64,000 nucleotides of DNA from an uncultured bacterium (GCA_965541585.1 CBEUCH010000004.1:64001-128000); one strand, 5' to 3'. Numbered from the stretch's first letter, positions 18,001-24,000 are shown. A program made the numbers.

Positions 18001-21000
18001 CATGATGGTCACCAAATATCCGCAATTCGAGTCGGCCGTGCGCAAAACTGTGGCTAAGATCGGAATGGAACTCGTGGACGTTGACGGTTTTACCTGTTGC
18101 CCCGATCCCATCTACTTCCAGGCGCGGGATAAGATGGAATGGTATACAATTGCCGCCCGCAACATATCGCTGGCCGAGGATCTGGGGTATGATATCATCA
18201 CGACCTGCTCGGGCTGCACCGCCACCCTTTCAGAGGTCAATCTGGCCCTGAAGGAAGATCCGGATCTAAAAGAGAATATTAATAAGCGCCTGATGAAAAT
18301 CGGCAGGCAATTCAAAGGTTCGATAAATGTCCGGCACGCCGTCACCGTCCTGCGGGATGATTTCGGTATCGACCGGATAACCAAAACCGTTACTCGGCCC
18401 CTTGAGGGATTGAAGGCAGCCGTCCATTATGGTTGTCATCTTTTAAAACCGTCGCGGGTGATGAGAGTGGACGACCCGGACCGCCCGACGATTCTCGAGA
18501 GCTTTTTGAAGGCTATCGGCGTGGAGCCGGTTTATCATGACAGAACTCTTTTATGCTGCGGTAAGGCCTGCACGACCGATACGATTCCGGATCGGATGGT
18601 TATTGATATCCTGGAGTCAATACGGGCTAAAGGCGCCGACTGCATGGGCCTGATTTGCCCGACCTGTTTCGACCAGTTCGATGTCAAGCAGATCATTTTG
18701 AATCGAAAATATAAAAAGAATTTCGAAATACCGGTCATCTACTATTTTCAGCTTCTCGGCCTGGCGCAGGGACTGAAGCCGGAAGAGCTCGGGCTCCATC
18801 TGCACAAGATCAAAGTCGATCGCATACTTAATACGGTAGCGGTGGCATCATAGAGATCCGCGGTCATCATACAGATCCGCAGGAAAATATATTATTTCAC
18901 ACGACAGGGGGGACGATCACCCCTCTAAACTCTGATCCTCTCCACCAGCGTCTCAATGACCCTGGCTGCATCCGCCGTGCGTTTCAGGAAATCGTCATAT
19001 AGCTTCCCTGCGGCCTCGGCGCTGTCGCCGTATCCCATGCTCTCGGCTACCGGCTGGAGGTGCTCCTGCTCGATAACGTTGTGGGCGGCAACCTTTAATC
19101 GATAAGTATCTCGAAGCTTCTTTATAAAGTCCAGATGCTGTCCAATTTGCTTGAATTCCTTTGCATGGGCAGGTTCGATTTCCACCAGCCTCTGCAGAAA
19201 CTTTCTGGATAAGGGATCGCGCACCCTGTGCTTGGCCTTATATATCAGAAGCAACATTTCGATGTCGCGCAGCCCCCCGGGGCATTCCTTGATGTCCCGG
19301 AAATGATCGTCATCTTTCTGCGCGTGACGTGCCGTGAGTTCATTCTTCATCTGCTCTATGTACCGGGAGGCGCGGGCGAATATCAGCGGGCTGATAATCT
19401 CATCCTGGAGCTGGTTTTCCAGTTTTCTACTCCCCACCAGCATCCTCGAACTCAATATTTGCGACTGATCTATGAAAATGCTCTCTCCGGGATTTTCAAG
19501 GTGATTGGCCAGTTGATCGAAACTGATAACATAGCTGCCAAAGTGATCGGCGAAACGATGATGCGGCAGAATCCCCCGTTTTAGTATCTCGGAATTCATT
19601 TTGCCAACAATCTTATTGCAGTATTCAATCTCATCTTCCTCGGAGGAGTCGAGGATAACGATCATGTCGTAATCGTCATCGAAACCCTGCTCGCGGGCAT
19701 GACCTCCGGTTGCATACAACGCGAAAAGATCGTGGGTACGCTGAGAATATCCGAGCGATAGATGTATATCCTCATGGCAGAGCTCATATAACGTAAGAGT
19801 GTAGTTGTCTGTAAACTCGATAAATTCCGCATCGGTCTGCTCACAGGCAGCGCCCGACATGGCAAGTATACTAACCCGCACGAATTCCAGATCATAATAA
19901 TCTCCAAGCTGTTCGATACGTTCCCCCACGGGCGACAGCGATGTCAGGTCGCTGTAAAAACCGCTGGTGATCTCTTTCAGTTTTTCGTTATTATGGAGAT
20001 TCTTGATAAACATCGGGTATTTGTTCAGAATGCTGTGGAAATGCCGCTTGAAGAATTGACTGCTCTGGTAGTGCAGATTACATAACGCCAGAAGCTGTCC
20101 GTATATATGTTGCAGTTCGGGCAACGGCTGCTCCCTGTGAGAAAGCTCTGTGAATCTGGACAGACAGTCTTTATCGATAAGGGCCAGAAATTTGTTCAAC
20201 ATCACAGGATAGGCGTAAACCAGATGTGTCAAAAGAGCTGAGGCGTCCCGAAGAAGGCCGAGTTCATCGATAAAGAGATAACTTATGAGATTGAAAAGGC
20301 TTTTCTGCTCATCGGTCTTGGCCCTTTCTCCGAGAATCACGAGAAACCTGACGACTGAGCCAGGGTCATACCTGGCGCCGTTTATATAGCCATAGGCGAC
20401 TTTGCGCCGCAGCCTTTCAGGCAATTTGTTGAGACTTTCAATAAACTCGTTTAGGAAGAGACTATTTTCAACAGCCAGCTCCTCCAGAAAATCGTCCCAG
20501 TAAGTGATCCCCTTAAAGAAATCGGAGGCCCGGATAAAATCGATTGCCAGGTTACCTTTGAATCCCGGTTTTTTGTGAATCTCTCCGGAAAAGATCGGAT
20601 TGAAGACGCTTATTTTTCGGAGATGTTTTCTTAAATCGCCGGTCAGGACTTCGATAGCATTATTACTCTTATTCAGGAATTCATAGTAGTTGACCAGCAT
20701 GAAATCCTCAGCGGAGACTACGCCCTTCTTTTCAAAACCAAGCATCCCTGCTATCCCGGCTACCATGGCTTCGATGCCGGGATCGCTCAGACTGATATCT
20801 TCATCCTGGGCAACCATTATCTGGTAGAGATGACGGAACAGTTCGAGGAAGCTCAAAGCCTGTTCCAGATCGTTGTACTGGGATTCCCGCTGAGGATTTT
20901 TCAATTTGAGTTCATCTATGATGTACCAGGAGTTGGCCTTATCCACGCCATGGACAAGCTTGAGGGCCGATAGCAGGCTTTTCATGGGCCGCAAGCCGTC

Positions 21001-24000
21001 ATCCTTGGGGTAGATAATTTCGGATGGCTTGGCAGAGGTCAGAAGAGAACGAATTTCACCCAGTATACCCCGGAGATAACCCTCATGATAGCGATTTTCC
21101 TTGAGACCGGGATCGAAGAAGAAACGATTGGTCACCCTTACCTTGAATTCGTCGAAGAGCTCGTAGCTTCCCAGAATCGATGCCGCACCCAGCATCTCCG
21201 TAATGATTACGAAATCATAAACACTTTTTGCGAGTATATCCTCGTATTCTTCGATGGCTGCGGCCAGGCTGTGCCGGCCGACATGTTCCGAGAGGTGGAA
21301 ATGAAGACGTGTGGCCTTTTTCAACATCTCGCCCGATAACCGTCCGATAGCCCGATTGAGGAGTTCTGAATTTTCAGTTTGGCGGTAAACTATCCCGAGA
21401 TCTATATCGTCCTGGTCGGCTCTGGTGCCGACACCCATCATAACGAATTCCGGTACTTTTTCATCATCGAGAAATATCCCCAGCAATCGCTCCATATAGC
21501 ATTTTGTCAGATAACGAAACATCCGCCCTGCTTCAAGCATCAGTTTTCTGCCAGACAACCAGCGCCGGCCACCGGCGGCTAATTCGAGTTTGACGATATC
21601 CACCATGCGCAAATTCAACGATAGAAACTGCAGGGCGTAGTAACATCCGAGGAAATTCAATTTCTCTTTTGTATCCGGTGCCGCCTGCAGCACCGTATCC
21701 ATCTCGCCCGGGATTTCCGTCGAGTAACTCCAGAGGTGCACCCTGTCACGCATCCCCTTCAACTCTAAAGATGACGTTAAGGCTTCGATATTGGCAGATA
21801 TGATATGAAGATATTTACGGTGATAATTGCCCAGGGCAGCGGTTCTTTCAGAGAGGCGTACCAACTGGTCTTTCATTTGATCCAGCCCTTAGATTTGCAA
21901 TATAGGTCGGTCATCGGAAAATGATCGGGATCTTCCCCCTGTTGGTCAGCCGGCGGCATCCAAACCGGCATCATACGCCTTGATATAGATATCCTCGGAG
22001 TTTTTGGGAATACGGGCCAGAATCGCCTGCTGAATTGATTTCTCGCCGACTACGTCGTTTACACCGGCAAAGAAACCCAGGGCTACGATATTGGTCATGG
22101 CGGGCTTGCCGCATTCCTTTTCGGCAATTTCCATAAAAGGTATCGAATATACTTTCCGGTCTTTATTCTCACCCGATATCTTTACATGCGAATCTACTGC
22201 AACAATCCCGTCCGGACGGAGATCATCTATATGCTTATCGAAAGCCTGTTGAGTCAGCGCCACCAGGAAATCGATGGTCTCGGCCCTGGGGTAATCGATG
22301 GCCTCATCGGAGATGATTATCTCGGCGCGGCTGGCGCTACCCCTGGCCTCCGGACCATAGGAGCAGCTTTCAGCGGCGTTGTTGTTATCATAGATAGCGG
22401 CCGCCTCCGCTATTATTCTGGCGGCCTGGATGAGCCCGGCCCCCCCGCCGCCGCTCAATCTTATGCTATATCTGAAAGCCATTTCAATCGCCTACATCCC
22501 GTGCTCTGCAGCTTTGGAAGCGCCGTCGGGAACCCCTTCCCGACGGGACCAAGGCTGTCAGGAAAGGGTTCCTGACAGCTTTACCAAATCCCATATAGTC
22601 AATATATGACCAATGAAGCCTTTATTCAATGGCTAAAAAAGATCAGCGAGGCGGGTCAGAAATATATACGCTGGTGCGCGAGGATGTGCGCTAACAACAA
22701 AAAGAAAGCGCCAGGTGCAAAGACCTGGCGCCATAATTGACCGGACAGGCCGATCAGCCCACAACTTTATTGCGATACTTTTCTTACAGCCTTGGCCTTC
22801 AAGCTTGGCATGACCAGCGGCCGATCTCCACCGCCCGGCAGCAATCTACCTTCACCCGGACAATCCACACAGCCGGCAAGCGGCTCGGGGCCTCTGTAGG
22901 CCGCGATCGACTTGACAACGTCGGTAAGCTCAAAGCTCGTGCAGTTTCCATCCGCATCGGCCGAAGGCTTATACTCGGGATTCGCCTCCGTGCAAAAGCA
23001 GACGTAACCGGGTTGATCATAGCCTCTATAGTAAGCGATCATCTTGACAACGTCCGTAAGCTGCCGCGCGCTGCCGTCTTCGTCGCTGTCGCCAGGTTCG
23101 TAGATGCAGTCGCCGCCACCGGAGGGCAGACCGACCCAGTAACCGGCATCGACGGTATAGTTTTCCGATGACGACCGTCCCACTATGGCCTGCCCGATAG
23201 TGCCATCAGCCTGATGGCTCTCCGATTCCGCATGCCCTCCGCCGGAGGCGATTACAGACCAGTCGATCTGGTAATTCTGGGCACTGGCTAATGATGCTAT
23301 GAACGATAACAAGATTAATATCTTCAAAACATTCATCTGTCCCTCCTGTTAACCGGGCATTTGTTGCCCCCAAGAGGTGTCCGTGACGAACAAGGTGTAT
23401 TCATTTTGTCACCCAGGCACTGTTTTCGTAGAAGTTGAACTGGTTGTTCGTCGTATTGTAAATGATCATGCCGTTAACCGCAGTCAGGGCGTTCCTCTGG
23501 GCGGTGGTCATCCTGGGCAGGATAAACGCTCCTGTAGTCGAGCTGACATCCAATGCACCCTGGGGGCTTGCAGTCCCGATGCCTACATTGCCGTCCTGCC
23601 GTAAAACCATCACCTCATTATTGGCCTCATTTCGGAAATATAGCTGGGAGATTCCGGGTAAGCCAATGAACCATTTCTGGGTTCCGCCGGCCATCAATTT
23701 ATAGCCCGACATGCCGCCAGTTTGCCCATTAACTGCGATATACCGAGTCCCAAAACCATCTCCTACCTCAAGTGTATGGCTCGGCGTGGTCGTTCCGATG
23801 CCAACCCCTCCCGAAGCGCGGATGAGGAACTGATCCGCACCGGTGGAGACGAAATCGGCGTCGGTCTGGTCGGCCCAGACGAAAGCACCGTTGTGGTTGG
23901 CTTGGGCCCGGCGCCCCGCGGCAAAGGAGTAAGTGCCACCCGCTATATTTCGGGTTCCTCCGGGAACCATAGAGTGATTCCCAATGGCCGAGTTGGAATC

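What a model noticed while it worked through the whole genome (the two positions that open the first line are those of the whole stretch)
18925..22482. GlnE-like double nucleotidyltransferase paired with an orphan 2-oxoacid:ferredoxin oxidoreductase gamma subunit: a candi [...]
g00953 (983 aa) has the two-nucleotidyltransferase architecture of GlnE with both acidic metal motifs intact, but it is co-transcribed with a stand-alone OFOR gamma-subunit paralogue (g00954), not with glutamine synthetase or PII, inside an OFOR-HdrA/FlpD-HdrBC neighbourhood. Both halves are predicted to dock the same face of g00954 around Tyr42, which is Tyr in the orphan and Phe in the operon's working gamma subunit: a writer/eraser pair acting on a PII-like decoy or sensor that regulates anaerobic 2-oxoacid oxidation.
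Evidence so far: AF2 model pLDDT 87.6; Foldseek top hits are both GlnE domains (1V4A E 7e-9, 3K7D E 8e-8). Motifs VGxxADQDDID and GGHAREQGFDDDYD near-invariant in 59 homologues; 432 homologues at E<=1e-60. Of 30 genome loci 24 have the orphan gamma directly upstream, 16 the divergent OFOR operon, 14 HdrBC, none GS. Tyr in 19 of 20 orphan gammas with a readable motif, Phe in 16 of 16 operon gammas. Complex prediction: N-half 0.82 and C-half 0.72, best controls 0.00 each, contacts agree >=88%/82%, partner pLDDT >=83/82, both interfaces include gamma residues 42-44.
(Added by a program. Inside this text positions count along the whole contig: contig position 64,001 is position 1 of the stretch shown here. 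"Call 12" and the like, gene names such as g00115 and contig names such as C1 are that model's own, and its searches are not shown. The text may have been shortened before it was handed on; [...] marks where a part breaks off. The agent that wrote the report below was given it as the finding of a first reader that could run no searches.)

Follow-up and report, generated by a model that had tools for sequence, protein, structure and literature searches.

The report
GlnE-like switch for oxoacid oxidoreductase
An unstudied two-headed enzyme, built like the one that switches glutamine synthetase on and off by adding and removing a nucleotide, instead travels with the CoA-binding subunit of an anaerobic citric-acid-cycle enzyme and probably switches that enzyme, here through a broken-down spare copy of the subunit; no activity has been shown.

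Summary
A 983-aa protein with two GlnD/GlnE-type nucleotidyltransferase halves (DxD conserved in both; fold Z 33 to GlnE) lies 69 nt behind a lone OFOR gamma gene.

The picture changes with distant relatives. There the enzyme usually sits beside a complete korD-A-B-C (probable 2-oxoglutarate:ferredoxin oxidoreductase) operon, and one genome of the same phylum keeps that operon in this very synteny. So the orphan is the leftover korC, not a paralogue of the adjacent Phe-type gamma, and Tyr42 is the family consensus. The orphan is under purifying selection but has lost residues invariant in working gammas.

In another phylum 49 of 50 carriers have this KorC type, against 35 with type I glutamine synthetase and 25 with the neighbouring SdhA type. 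Orphan Tyr42 is kept in 18 of 18 cases where the Phe-type OFOR is present, but is Phe or the gene is lost in 9 of 12 genomes lacking it.

Best reading: a GlnE-like writer/eraser retargeted to OFOR gamma subunits; here it works through a dead gamma on the Phe-type OFOR. Activity, nucleotide and site are inferred, not shown.

The parts
18925..21876 (-). Double nucleotidyltransferase (NT2), 983 aa: N-half about 60-425, helical middle about 426-640, C-half about 640-983
21400..21435 (-). N-half metal motif, residues 148-159 (G150, D154, D157, D159), shortened G-loop; inferred eraser site
   Evidence: G150 58/59, D154 54/59, D157 58/59, D159 58/59; 5-residue gap versus GlnD
19666..19707 (-). C-half metal motif, residues 724-737 (GG-x-x-R ... 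D735-x-D737), GlnD-like; inferred writer site
   Evidence: G724 58/59, R728 56/59, D735 57/59, D737 58/59; HH versus GlnD E 1.7e-29
21946..22482 (-). Orphan OFOR gamma subunit, 178 aa: remnant korC, selected but missing residues invariant in working gammas
22357..22359 (-). Tyr42 codon of the orphan gamma, candidate acceptor
   Evidence: 25 of 30 orphans; modification not shown
22417..22419 (-). Arg22 codon; Lys/Arg in every enzyme-associated gamma read, Val/Thr/Ile in the sucCD-operon-type KorC of the same phylum
   Evidence: not diagnostic, since 10 of 10 enzyme-free Krumholzibacteriota KorC also have Lys
17458..18853 (+). hdrC-hdrB-like genes, convergent with NT2
   Evidence: HdrB in 14 of 30 loci
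28953..31858 (+). delta-alpha-beta-gamma 2-oxoacid:ferredoxin oxidoreductase operon whose gamma has Phe at position 42; inferred regulated enzyme
   Evidence: close gamma in 21 of 21 carriers and 6 of 180 non-carriers of the phylum
31896..39098 (+). hdrA-like genes and an HdrC/B-like gene downstream of the OFOR operon (FlpD identity not tested here)
22767..28387 (-). Four-gene insert (PamT-like and adhesin-like weak hits), not part of the system; absent between gamma and delta in relatives such as L001

Best explanation
NT2 is a bifunctional protein nucleotidyltransferase/removase of the GlnD/GlnE superfamily whose partner is the KorC-type gamma subunit, the CoA-binding mobile domain III of 2-oxoacid:ferredoxin oxidoreductases.

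Ancestrally it is encoded beside korD-korA-korB-korC. It most likely puts an NMP (AMP or UMP) on the working gamma with its C-half and takes it off with its N-half, probably at Tyr42 in the conserved S-Y-G-P-E-A-R-G loop, switching 2-oxoglutarate oxidation or carboxylation off and on.

In the window's lineage a second kor operon (beside sucCD and mdh) made korD/A/B redundant, and they were lost. korC was kept, lost the residues of a working subunit and became a dedicated, modifiable partner. It most likely acts as a switchable dominant-negative or adaptor gamma for the neighbouring Phe42-type OFOR that feeds the Hdr cluster, whose own gamma cannot carry a Tyr modification.

Shown: architecture, motif conservation, gene order, ancestry of the orphan, selection on it, co-occurrence. 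Inferred: catalysis, writer/eraser split, physical binding, nucleotide, site, effect on OFOR, and the 2-oxoglutarate specificity (from sucCD/fumAB/mdh neighbours and PRK09628/PRK09627 scores below their cut-offs).
For: Context. Of 30 distant metagenome loci, 20 have korC nearby (one a fragment, one 3.9 kb away) and 17 also korA and/or korB; 7 of the other 10 have little or no upstream DNA. In the phylum of G202, 14 of 40 widened loci have korDABC upstream, 19 sdh, 3 hdrA and 4 none of these. In Krumholzibacteriota 7 genomes have NT2 directly next to korC, 6 of them tail to tail.

Missing link. L253 (G089, same class as the window) reads NT2-X-korC-korB-korA-korD, divergent from the Phe-type operon and hdrA. 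Its NT2 is sister to the orphan clade (support 100), and it has no sucCD-type KorC, whereas 19 of 19 orphan genomes have a second KorC-like match (read as sucCD-operon type in all 17 fetched).

Co-occurrence, about two-thirds unlinked. This KorC type is in 49 of 50 carriers and 6 of 95 non-carriers. Controls: GSI 35 of 50 and 77 of 95; SdhA 25 of 50 and 16 of 95. In Krumholzibacteriota it is 20 of 21 and 15 of 100.

Orphan state. dN/dS is 0.06-0.13 in 5 unsaturated pairs of 6, against 0.02-0.03 for working korC. Q40 is 0 of 25, N166 0 of 25, G49 0 of 25 and Q15 12 of 24, whereas Q15 and N166 are kept in essentially all working gammas. A second, apparently separate degenerate gamma accompanies NT2 in G201.

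Tyr42 tracks the Phe-type OFOR: 18 of 18 Tyr with it; 3 Tyr, 5 Phe and 4 lost without it. The 5 Phe-orphan genomes and 3 of the 4 orphan-less ones have a working KorC with K22 and Y42.

GlnE precedent (Tyr AMPylation, C-domain writes, N-domain erases): PMC12409994, passages. Domain III binds CoA and moves about 7 A: PMC13768988, passages.
Against: No activity and no independent docking. Tyr42 is family consensus, so its presence is not evidence. Five orphans persist with Phe42 beside an NT2 (motifs checked and intact in two of them), so the orphan can be kept without that Tyr. K/R22 is not diagnostic (10 of 10 enzyme-free Krumholzibacteriota KorC have it).

Exceptions: G118 has NT2 with no orphan and a V22 KorC; G307 and G462 have NT2 with no such KorC found (incomplete genomes). 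In 19 of 40 loci the neighbour is sdh, in 3 it is hdrA, and two members carry an HdrC-like Fe-S tail, so other redox enzymes are possible targets.

Canonical GlnE never co-occurs with NT2 (0 of 50 against 21 of 95), as a substitute would behave. Genomes are related, so the counts are not independent; the Phe orphans may be only one to three events, and the orphan, NT2 and Phe-type operon are physically linked. The N-half loop is shortened and the third Asp is usually His, so one half may be non-catalytic. The Tyr loop may be buried in the assembled enzyme (not testable here).
Confidence: 0.55

Rival explanations
1. The gamma subunit is a non-covalent effector, as PII is for GlnE. It reports CoA, acyl-CoA or OFOR assembly state and steers NT2, which nucleotidylates another protein of the anaerobic redox network (KorA/B, HdrA, Sdh).
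For: Five orphans are kept with Phe42 but still have R22. NT2 has a GlnE-like middle region (3K7D aligns over residues 502-981). Neighbours are sdh in 19 and hdrA in 3 of 40 loci. There are HdrC-like fusions.
Against: SdhA of that type is in only 25 of 50 carriers. The orphan has lost conserved gamma residues, which argues against simple CoA sensing (their role in CoA binding is recalled, not tested). Tyr retention tracks the Phe-type OFOR.
Confidence: 0.2
2. NT2 is a divergent stand-in for GlnE and modifies glutamine synthetase; the kor linkage reflects shared 2-oxoglutarate physiology.
For: The genome has a GSI with a Tyr in the loop equivalent to the adenylylation loop and no PF03710 match. 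Canonical GlnE is in 0 of 50 carriers against 21 of 95 non-carriers. The fold is closest to GlnE.
Against: 15 of 50 carriers have no GSI at E<=1e-60, and 5 of 5 re-checked have only weak hits, mostly in 600-810 aa frames, including a single-contig genome. GS is in 0 of 158 NT2 loci, while canonical GlnE often lies by GS. The only PII-like gene lies by a CusA-like gene and lacks a T-loop Tyr. 74 of 95 non-carriers also lack GlnE.
Confidence: 0.07
3. NT2 nucleotidylates or repairs a small molecule or cofactor of the OFOR system (a CoA or thiamine derivative), with gamma as the ligand carrier.
For: The superfamily includes small-molecule enzymes (aminoglycoside nucleotidyltransferases at Z about 8). 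Gamma is the CoA-binding domain (PMC13768988). A third, AbiEii-like nucleotidyltransferase gene X lies in the operon in 6 loci.
Against: Protein-modifying members score far higher (GlnE Z 30-33, DrrA Z 22.7). The orphan lost conserved core residues yet is the retained partner.
Confidence: 0.08
4. Only one half is catalytic, or the gamma link is inherited gene order with no physical partnership, the orphan being a slowly decaying remnant.
For: The N-half loop is shortened. The orphan evolves about three times faster relative to NT2 than working KorC does (distance ratio 1.25 against 0.39). It is lost in 4 Krumholzibacteriota genomes and G118.
Against: dN/dS is 0.06-0.13. Gamma alone was kept in 19 of 20 genomes after korD/A/B went. 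Co-occurrence persists without linkage. N-half acidic residues are conserved across 21-66% identity.
Confidence: 0.1

Closest known systems
GlnE / GS adenylyltransferase (PDB 1V4A, 3K7D; PF03710 + PF08335)
   Same: Two homologous nucleotidyltransferase domains around a helical middle, about 980 aa; best structural matches; DxD in both halves.
   Different: No PF03710 match; NF010707 16.9 bits against a cut-off of 625. It lacks the G-K-L-G-G and D-x-R-L-R-P motifs read from 20 GlnE loci. Its halves resemble each other (E 4e-34) more than GlnE's N-half (6e-20 and 4e-12), which suggests a separate duplication; the GlnE C-half profile was truncated, so that comparison is weak. Linked to kor, hdr and sdh, never to GS.
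GlnD PII uridylyltransferase (TIGR01693)
   Same: Nearest by sequence: the GG-x-x-R..DxD and K-E-x-x-GGLRD motifs of the C-half; all distant hits of the metagenome scan that carried a readable motif were GlnD-like, and 6 of 6 tested pass TIGR01693.
   Different: 59 bits against a cut-off of 519. The NT domain is doubled, and no HD or ACT domain was detected. No canonical PII in the genome.
DrrA/SidM AMPylase domain (6YX5)
   Same: Same fold, Z 22.7 over residues 645-983; modifies a Tyr (PMC12409994).
   Different: A single-domain secreted effector with a separate eraser; NT2 is a doubled housekeeping-type gene.
KorC/OorC gamma subunit (3ON3, 8YS5_B; PRK08537, PF01558)
   Same: Orphan model TM 0.90 to both; same Tyr loop in 3ON3.
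   Different: Stands alone; 174 bits against a cut-off of 235; lost Q40, G49, N166 and partly Q15 and N131.
OdhI/PknG control of 2-oxoglutarate dehydrogenase, and AceK control of isocitrate dehydrogenase (recalled, no call)
   Same: Reversible modification that throttles flux at the 2-oxoglutarate node, in one case through a small modifiable inhibitor protein.
   Different: Phosphorylation, unrelated folds, NAD-linked aerobic enzymes. A functional analogy only.

Membership tests
GlnE (GS adenylyltransferase) | Two homologous NT domains joined by a central domain | tested here: met
GlnE (GS adenylyltransferase) | PF03710 / NCBIfam GlnE score above cut-off | tested here: not met
   no PF03710; NF010707 16.9 against 625 bits
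GlnE (GS adenylyltransferase) | G-K-L-G-G..S-D-x-D and D-x-R-L-R-P motifs (third Asp) | tested here: not met
   GlnE motifs; NT2 has His at the aligned place in 44/59 and 49/59
GlnE (GS adenylyltransferase) | Type I GS present as substrate | tested here: inconclusive
   present in this genome but not found in 15 of 50 carriers of another phylum
GlnE (GS adenylyltransferase) | Adenylylates and deadenylylates GS | not testable with these tools
   needs an assay
GlnD (PII uridylyltransferase) | NT-HD-ACT-ACT layout and TIGR01693 cut-off | tested here: not met
   59 against 519 bits, no HD or ACT match
GlnD (PII uridylyltransferase) | PII with T-loop Tyr in the genome | tested here: not met
   one PII-like gene beside a CusA-like gene, no Tyr in the loop
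GlnD/GlnE (Pol-beta-like) nucleotidyltransferase superfamily | Fold plus conserved G..DxD metal site | tested here: met
   spacing is G-x10-DxD in the C-half and shorter in the N-half, against G-x11-DxD quoted in PMC12409994
OFOR gamma subunit (PF01558) | Domain III fold and Pfam cut-off | tested here: met
   106.6 against 27.4 bits; TM 0.90
Working KorC subunit | Residues invariant in working gammas (Q15, Q40, N131, N166) and cognate korA/korB | tested here: not met
   no korA/B of its type adjacent
Working KorC subunit | Binds CoA and assembles with alpha/beta | not testable with these tools
PII proteins | PII fold (PF00543) | tested here: not met
   the orphan is PF01558; 'PII-like' can only describe a role

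The most novel reading that the evidence does not exclude
A widespread, undescribed nucleotidylation switch for ferredoxin-dependent 2-oxoacid oxidoreductases. The C-half puts an NMP on gamma Tyr42, where it occupies the CoA site like CoA's own nucleotide end and locks domain III; the N-half removes it, in some members under control of a fused Fe-S domain. At least twice, evolution detached the gamma gene and turned it into a dead, modifiable pseudo-subunit that extends the switch to an OFOR whose own gamma has Phe and cannot be modified.
Probability: 0.3. Interest if true: 0.9.

Novelty: new variant of a known kind. Interest (0 to 1): 0.74.

Why it matters
The review passages I read describe GS-ATase as acting on a single substrate (PMC12409994). 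Five literature searches listed no paper on nucleotidylation of a 2-oxoacid:ferredoxin oxidoreductase or on this family, and Atlas clusters are all 'hypothetical'.

If right, this is a covalent on/off control for a central enzyme of anaerobic and reductive TCA metabolism, present in 21 of 201, 50 of 145 and 21 of 121 genomes of three uncultured phyla. It also shows how an enzyme subunit becomes a dedicated regulatory protein, with the intermediate still present in G089. Two small soluble proteins and intact-mass spectrometry would test it.

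Tried and rejected

RNA: no RNA holder was listed; this is no evidence either way.

Earlier findings: three look-ups returned nothing.

K/R22 as a specific marker of the system: attractive, rejected as diagnostic by the within-phylum control (10 of 10 non-carriers).

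Tyr versus Phe as an orphan-specific adaptation: rejected.

NT2-gamma fusion: none among 120 listed of 237 hits, 150 listed representatives or longer proteins (weak evidence). Long frames in G401, G413, G303 and G307 are spurious upstream extensions.

Sdh as general target: 25 of 50 carriers.

Promoter and terminator counts are at chance level (9 against 7.2; 7 against 5.6).

The careful gamma tree did not finish; quick and FastTree trees were used. The long-branch rows L029 and L063 are unsure, so the second origin of an orphan is likely, not shown.

The CoA-bound PFOR paper was not held, so which gamma residues touch CoA is recalled, not checked. A structure search for such passages and PMC5020499 and PMC12307629 (passages) did not settle it.

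Full report
1. What is in the window. Two minus-strand genes: 21946-22482 (178 aa) and, 69 nt on, 18925-21876 (983 aa, called NT2 here). NT2 ends tail to tail with hdrC-hdrB-like genes. Beyond a four-gene insert (22767-28387) lies a divergent delta-alpha-beta-gamma OFOR operon followed by hdrA-like genes. The genome is 98% complete, and relatives are titled mostly Zixiibacteriota. It has six PF01558 genes, one type I GS, one PII-like gene beside a CusA-like gene, no PF03710 match, and NT2 as the only PF08335 match. A second kor operon lies between sucC-sucD and mdh on contig C1.

2. The enzyme. AF2 gives pLDDT 88.8. Foldseek ranks GlnE domains first and DrrA next. VIA-align gives Z 33.0 (1V4A), 30.2 (3K7D, including part of the middle region) and 22.7 (DrrA), against about 8 for aminoglycoside enzymes; these alignments cover the C-half, and the N-half is tied in by profile comparison. 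The halves match each other at E 3.8e-34. The C-half matches a 22-row GlnD profile at 1.7e-29 and an 18-row GlnE N-half profile at 5.6e-20; the N-half gives 7.9e-15 and 3.9e-12. The 5-row GlnE C-half profile was truncated and is uninformative. In 59 full-length representatives, both DxD pairs are kept in 57-58, the third-Asp position is mostly His, and the N-half G-loop is short. NT2 is therefore a member of the superfamily, built like GlnE, but it fails the GlnE and GlnD membership tests. Assigning writer to the C-half and eraser to the N-half is inference from GlnE (PMC12409994, passages) and from the GlnD-like C motif.

3. On the 30 GTDB loci I get 24 with the gamma upstream, 16 with the OFOR operon and 14 with HdrB. 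One more has its orphan on another contig. GS is in none of 158 redundant NT2 loci. In the window's phylum, 21 of 201 genomes have NT2. Twenty of them, and none of the 180 others, have a gamma scoring at least 244 bits on the orphan profile, the next best being 187. One of the twenty (G089) is a full operon, so there are 19 true orphans, one intact operon and one genome with neither (G118). The docking scores could not be re-run.

4. A scan seeded with the 40%-identity clade returned 33 family loci among 80 kept; the other 47 were short fragments or GlnD-like and were set aside, and 3 of the 33 belong to the orphan clade. Of the remaining 30, 20 have korC nearby (one a fragment, one 3.9 kb away) and 17 also korA and/or korB; 7 of the other 10 have little or no upstream DNA. 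In the phylum of G202, 50 of 145 genomes carry NT2. I widened 40 of the 55 matched places: 14 have korDABC upstream, 19 are beside an sdh operon, 3 follow hdrA and 4 show none of these. In Krumholzibacteriota, 21 of 121 carry it, and 7 have it directly next to korC. On the NT2 tree the kor-operon context is spread over the deep branches; the orphan clade (100) is sister to L253 (100), and sdh is one derived clade (FastTree, midpoint root). L253 reads NT2, X, korC, korB, korA, korD and then, divergently, the Phe-type operon and hdrA: the window's order before korD/A/B and X were lost. G089 lacks the sucCD-type KorC; the 19 orphan genomes all have a second KorC-like match. Gamma trees place the orphans with these KorCs and apart from the Phe-type clade.

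5. Which partner tracks NT2. In the phylum of G202, the KorC type (at least 58% identity, next best 49%) is in 49 of 50 carriers and 6 of 95 non-carriers, about two-thirds of them on other contigs or far away. Fourteen of 14 such unlinked copies fetched lie in full korDABC operons. GSI is in 35 of 50 and 77 of 95, SdhA in 25 of 50 and 16 of 95, and canonical GlnE in 0 of 50 and 21 of 95. The last figure favours the GS rival. But 15 carriers lack GSI, and five re-checked have only weak hits. In Krumholzibacteriota the KorC type is in 20 of 21 carriers and 15 of 100 others. Relatedness inflates all such tables. Two genomes flagged unpublished (G344, G347) are among the 95 non-carriers; G344 is one of the 21 GlnE genomes and one row of the GlnE profile. 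No conclusion depends on them.

6. The orphan. It folds as domain III (pLDDT 91.9; TM 0.90 to 3ON3 and 8YS5), the mobile CoA-binding domain (PMC13768988, passages). It is selected (dN/dS 0.06-0.13 in five pairs, a sixth saturated) but relaxed against working korC (0.02-0.03). It has lost Q40, G49 and N166 in 25 of 25 and Q15 in 12 of 24. That these residues serve CoA binding or assembly is recalled, not tested. Tyr42 is uninformative by itself, being in all working KorCs read. Its loss is informative. Orphans have Tyr in 18 of 18 cases where the Phe-type OFOR is present. Among 12 Krumholzibacteriota carriers of the orphan-clade enzyme in which that OFOR's gamma was not found, 3 keep Tyr, 5 have Phe and 4 have no orphan; 11 of the 12 have a working KorC with K22 and Y42. 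These may be few independent events in incomplete genomes, and Phe orphans also show that the pairing can persist without Tyr42. Position 22 is basic in 24 of 24 orphans, 34 of 34 linked and 14 of 14 unlinked KorCs of carriers, and in 0 of 26 sucCD-operon-type KorCs of the window's phylum. It is also basic in 10 of 10 non-carrier Krumholzibacteriota, so it is at most necessary. The close Phe-type gamma is in 21 of 21 carriers and 6 of 180 non-carriers of the window's phylum, consistent with an optional module on a linked block.

7. How it most likely works. Shown: architecture, conservation, gene history, selection and co-occurrence. Inferred: NT2 binds KorC-type gamma (about 0.8); it nucleotidylates it reversibly (about 0.55), at Tyr42 (about 0.45); the mark blocks CoA binding or domain III closure and so stops the enzyme; and in this genome the dead gamma relays the switch to the Phe-type OFOR that feeds the Hdr cluster (about 0.35). 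Rivals: gamma as allosteric effector with another target (0.2), inherited linkage or one dead half (0.1), a small-molecule substrate (0.08), GS (0.07).

8. Literature. Searches (listings and abstract starts only) gave no paper on this family or on nucleotidylation of an OFOR; most subscription papers are not searched. Read: PMC12409994, PMC13768988, PMC12307629 and PMC5020499 as passages, and bioRxiv 10.64898/2026.09.02.748916 as abstract and outline. No supplements were opened; supplementary tables of genome papers could mention the gene. Atlas clusters (commonest WOR-3 and Fidelibacterota) are unnamed.

9. Verdict. The feature is real and appears undescribed: a new variant of the GlnE/GlnD kind with a probable new target class. 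Interest 0.74.

Noticed in passing
L253:7621-8373; also L035, L039, L040, L041, L051: Gene X, about 250 aa, between korC and NT2 in 6 loci. It is an AbiEii/DUF6036-like nucleotidyltransferase (G-A..D-x-D motif), so a third NT gene in the operon. No homologue in the window's genome.
   Followed up: partly
P0096, P0101: NT2 members with a C-terminal HdrC-like two-cluster Fe-S domain, a possible redox sensor.
   Followed up: partly
window 22767-28387: Four-gene insert of two similar pairs (PamT-like small secreted protein plus long adhesin-like protein; one with a PF13884 chaperone domain), not seen between gamma and delta in relatives.
   Followed up: no
L029:9308-9952 (G201): A differently degenerate gamma before a 34%-identical NT2, keeping K22 and Y42, while that genome's working KorC has V22: probably a second origin of an orphan.
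   Followed up: partly
L050:3713-4463; L064:930-3802: NT2 followed by a fused gamma-alpha type OFOR gene, a further OFOR context.
   Followed up: no
L031:8729-9958: A conserved 409-aa gene (LarA-like by recall, not tested) between korC and mdh in the sucCD-kor operon of most relatives fetched.
   Followed up: no
L282 (G089:C8): Two OFOR operons facing each other, with their gamma genes tail to tail.
   Followed up: no
L005, L016, L017: NT2 split over two ORFs in three assemblies; frameshift or assembly error not resolved.
   Followed up: no
G310; G305: G310 carries two different NT2 genes (kor-linked and hdrA-linked); G305 has two equal-scoring NT2-sdh blocks on different contigs.
   Followed up: no
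G000:C21:26759-27157: The only PII-like gene follows a CusA/CzcA-like efflux gene and lacks the T-loop Tyr.
   Followed up: partly
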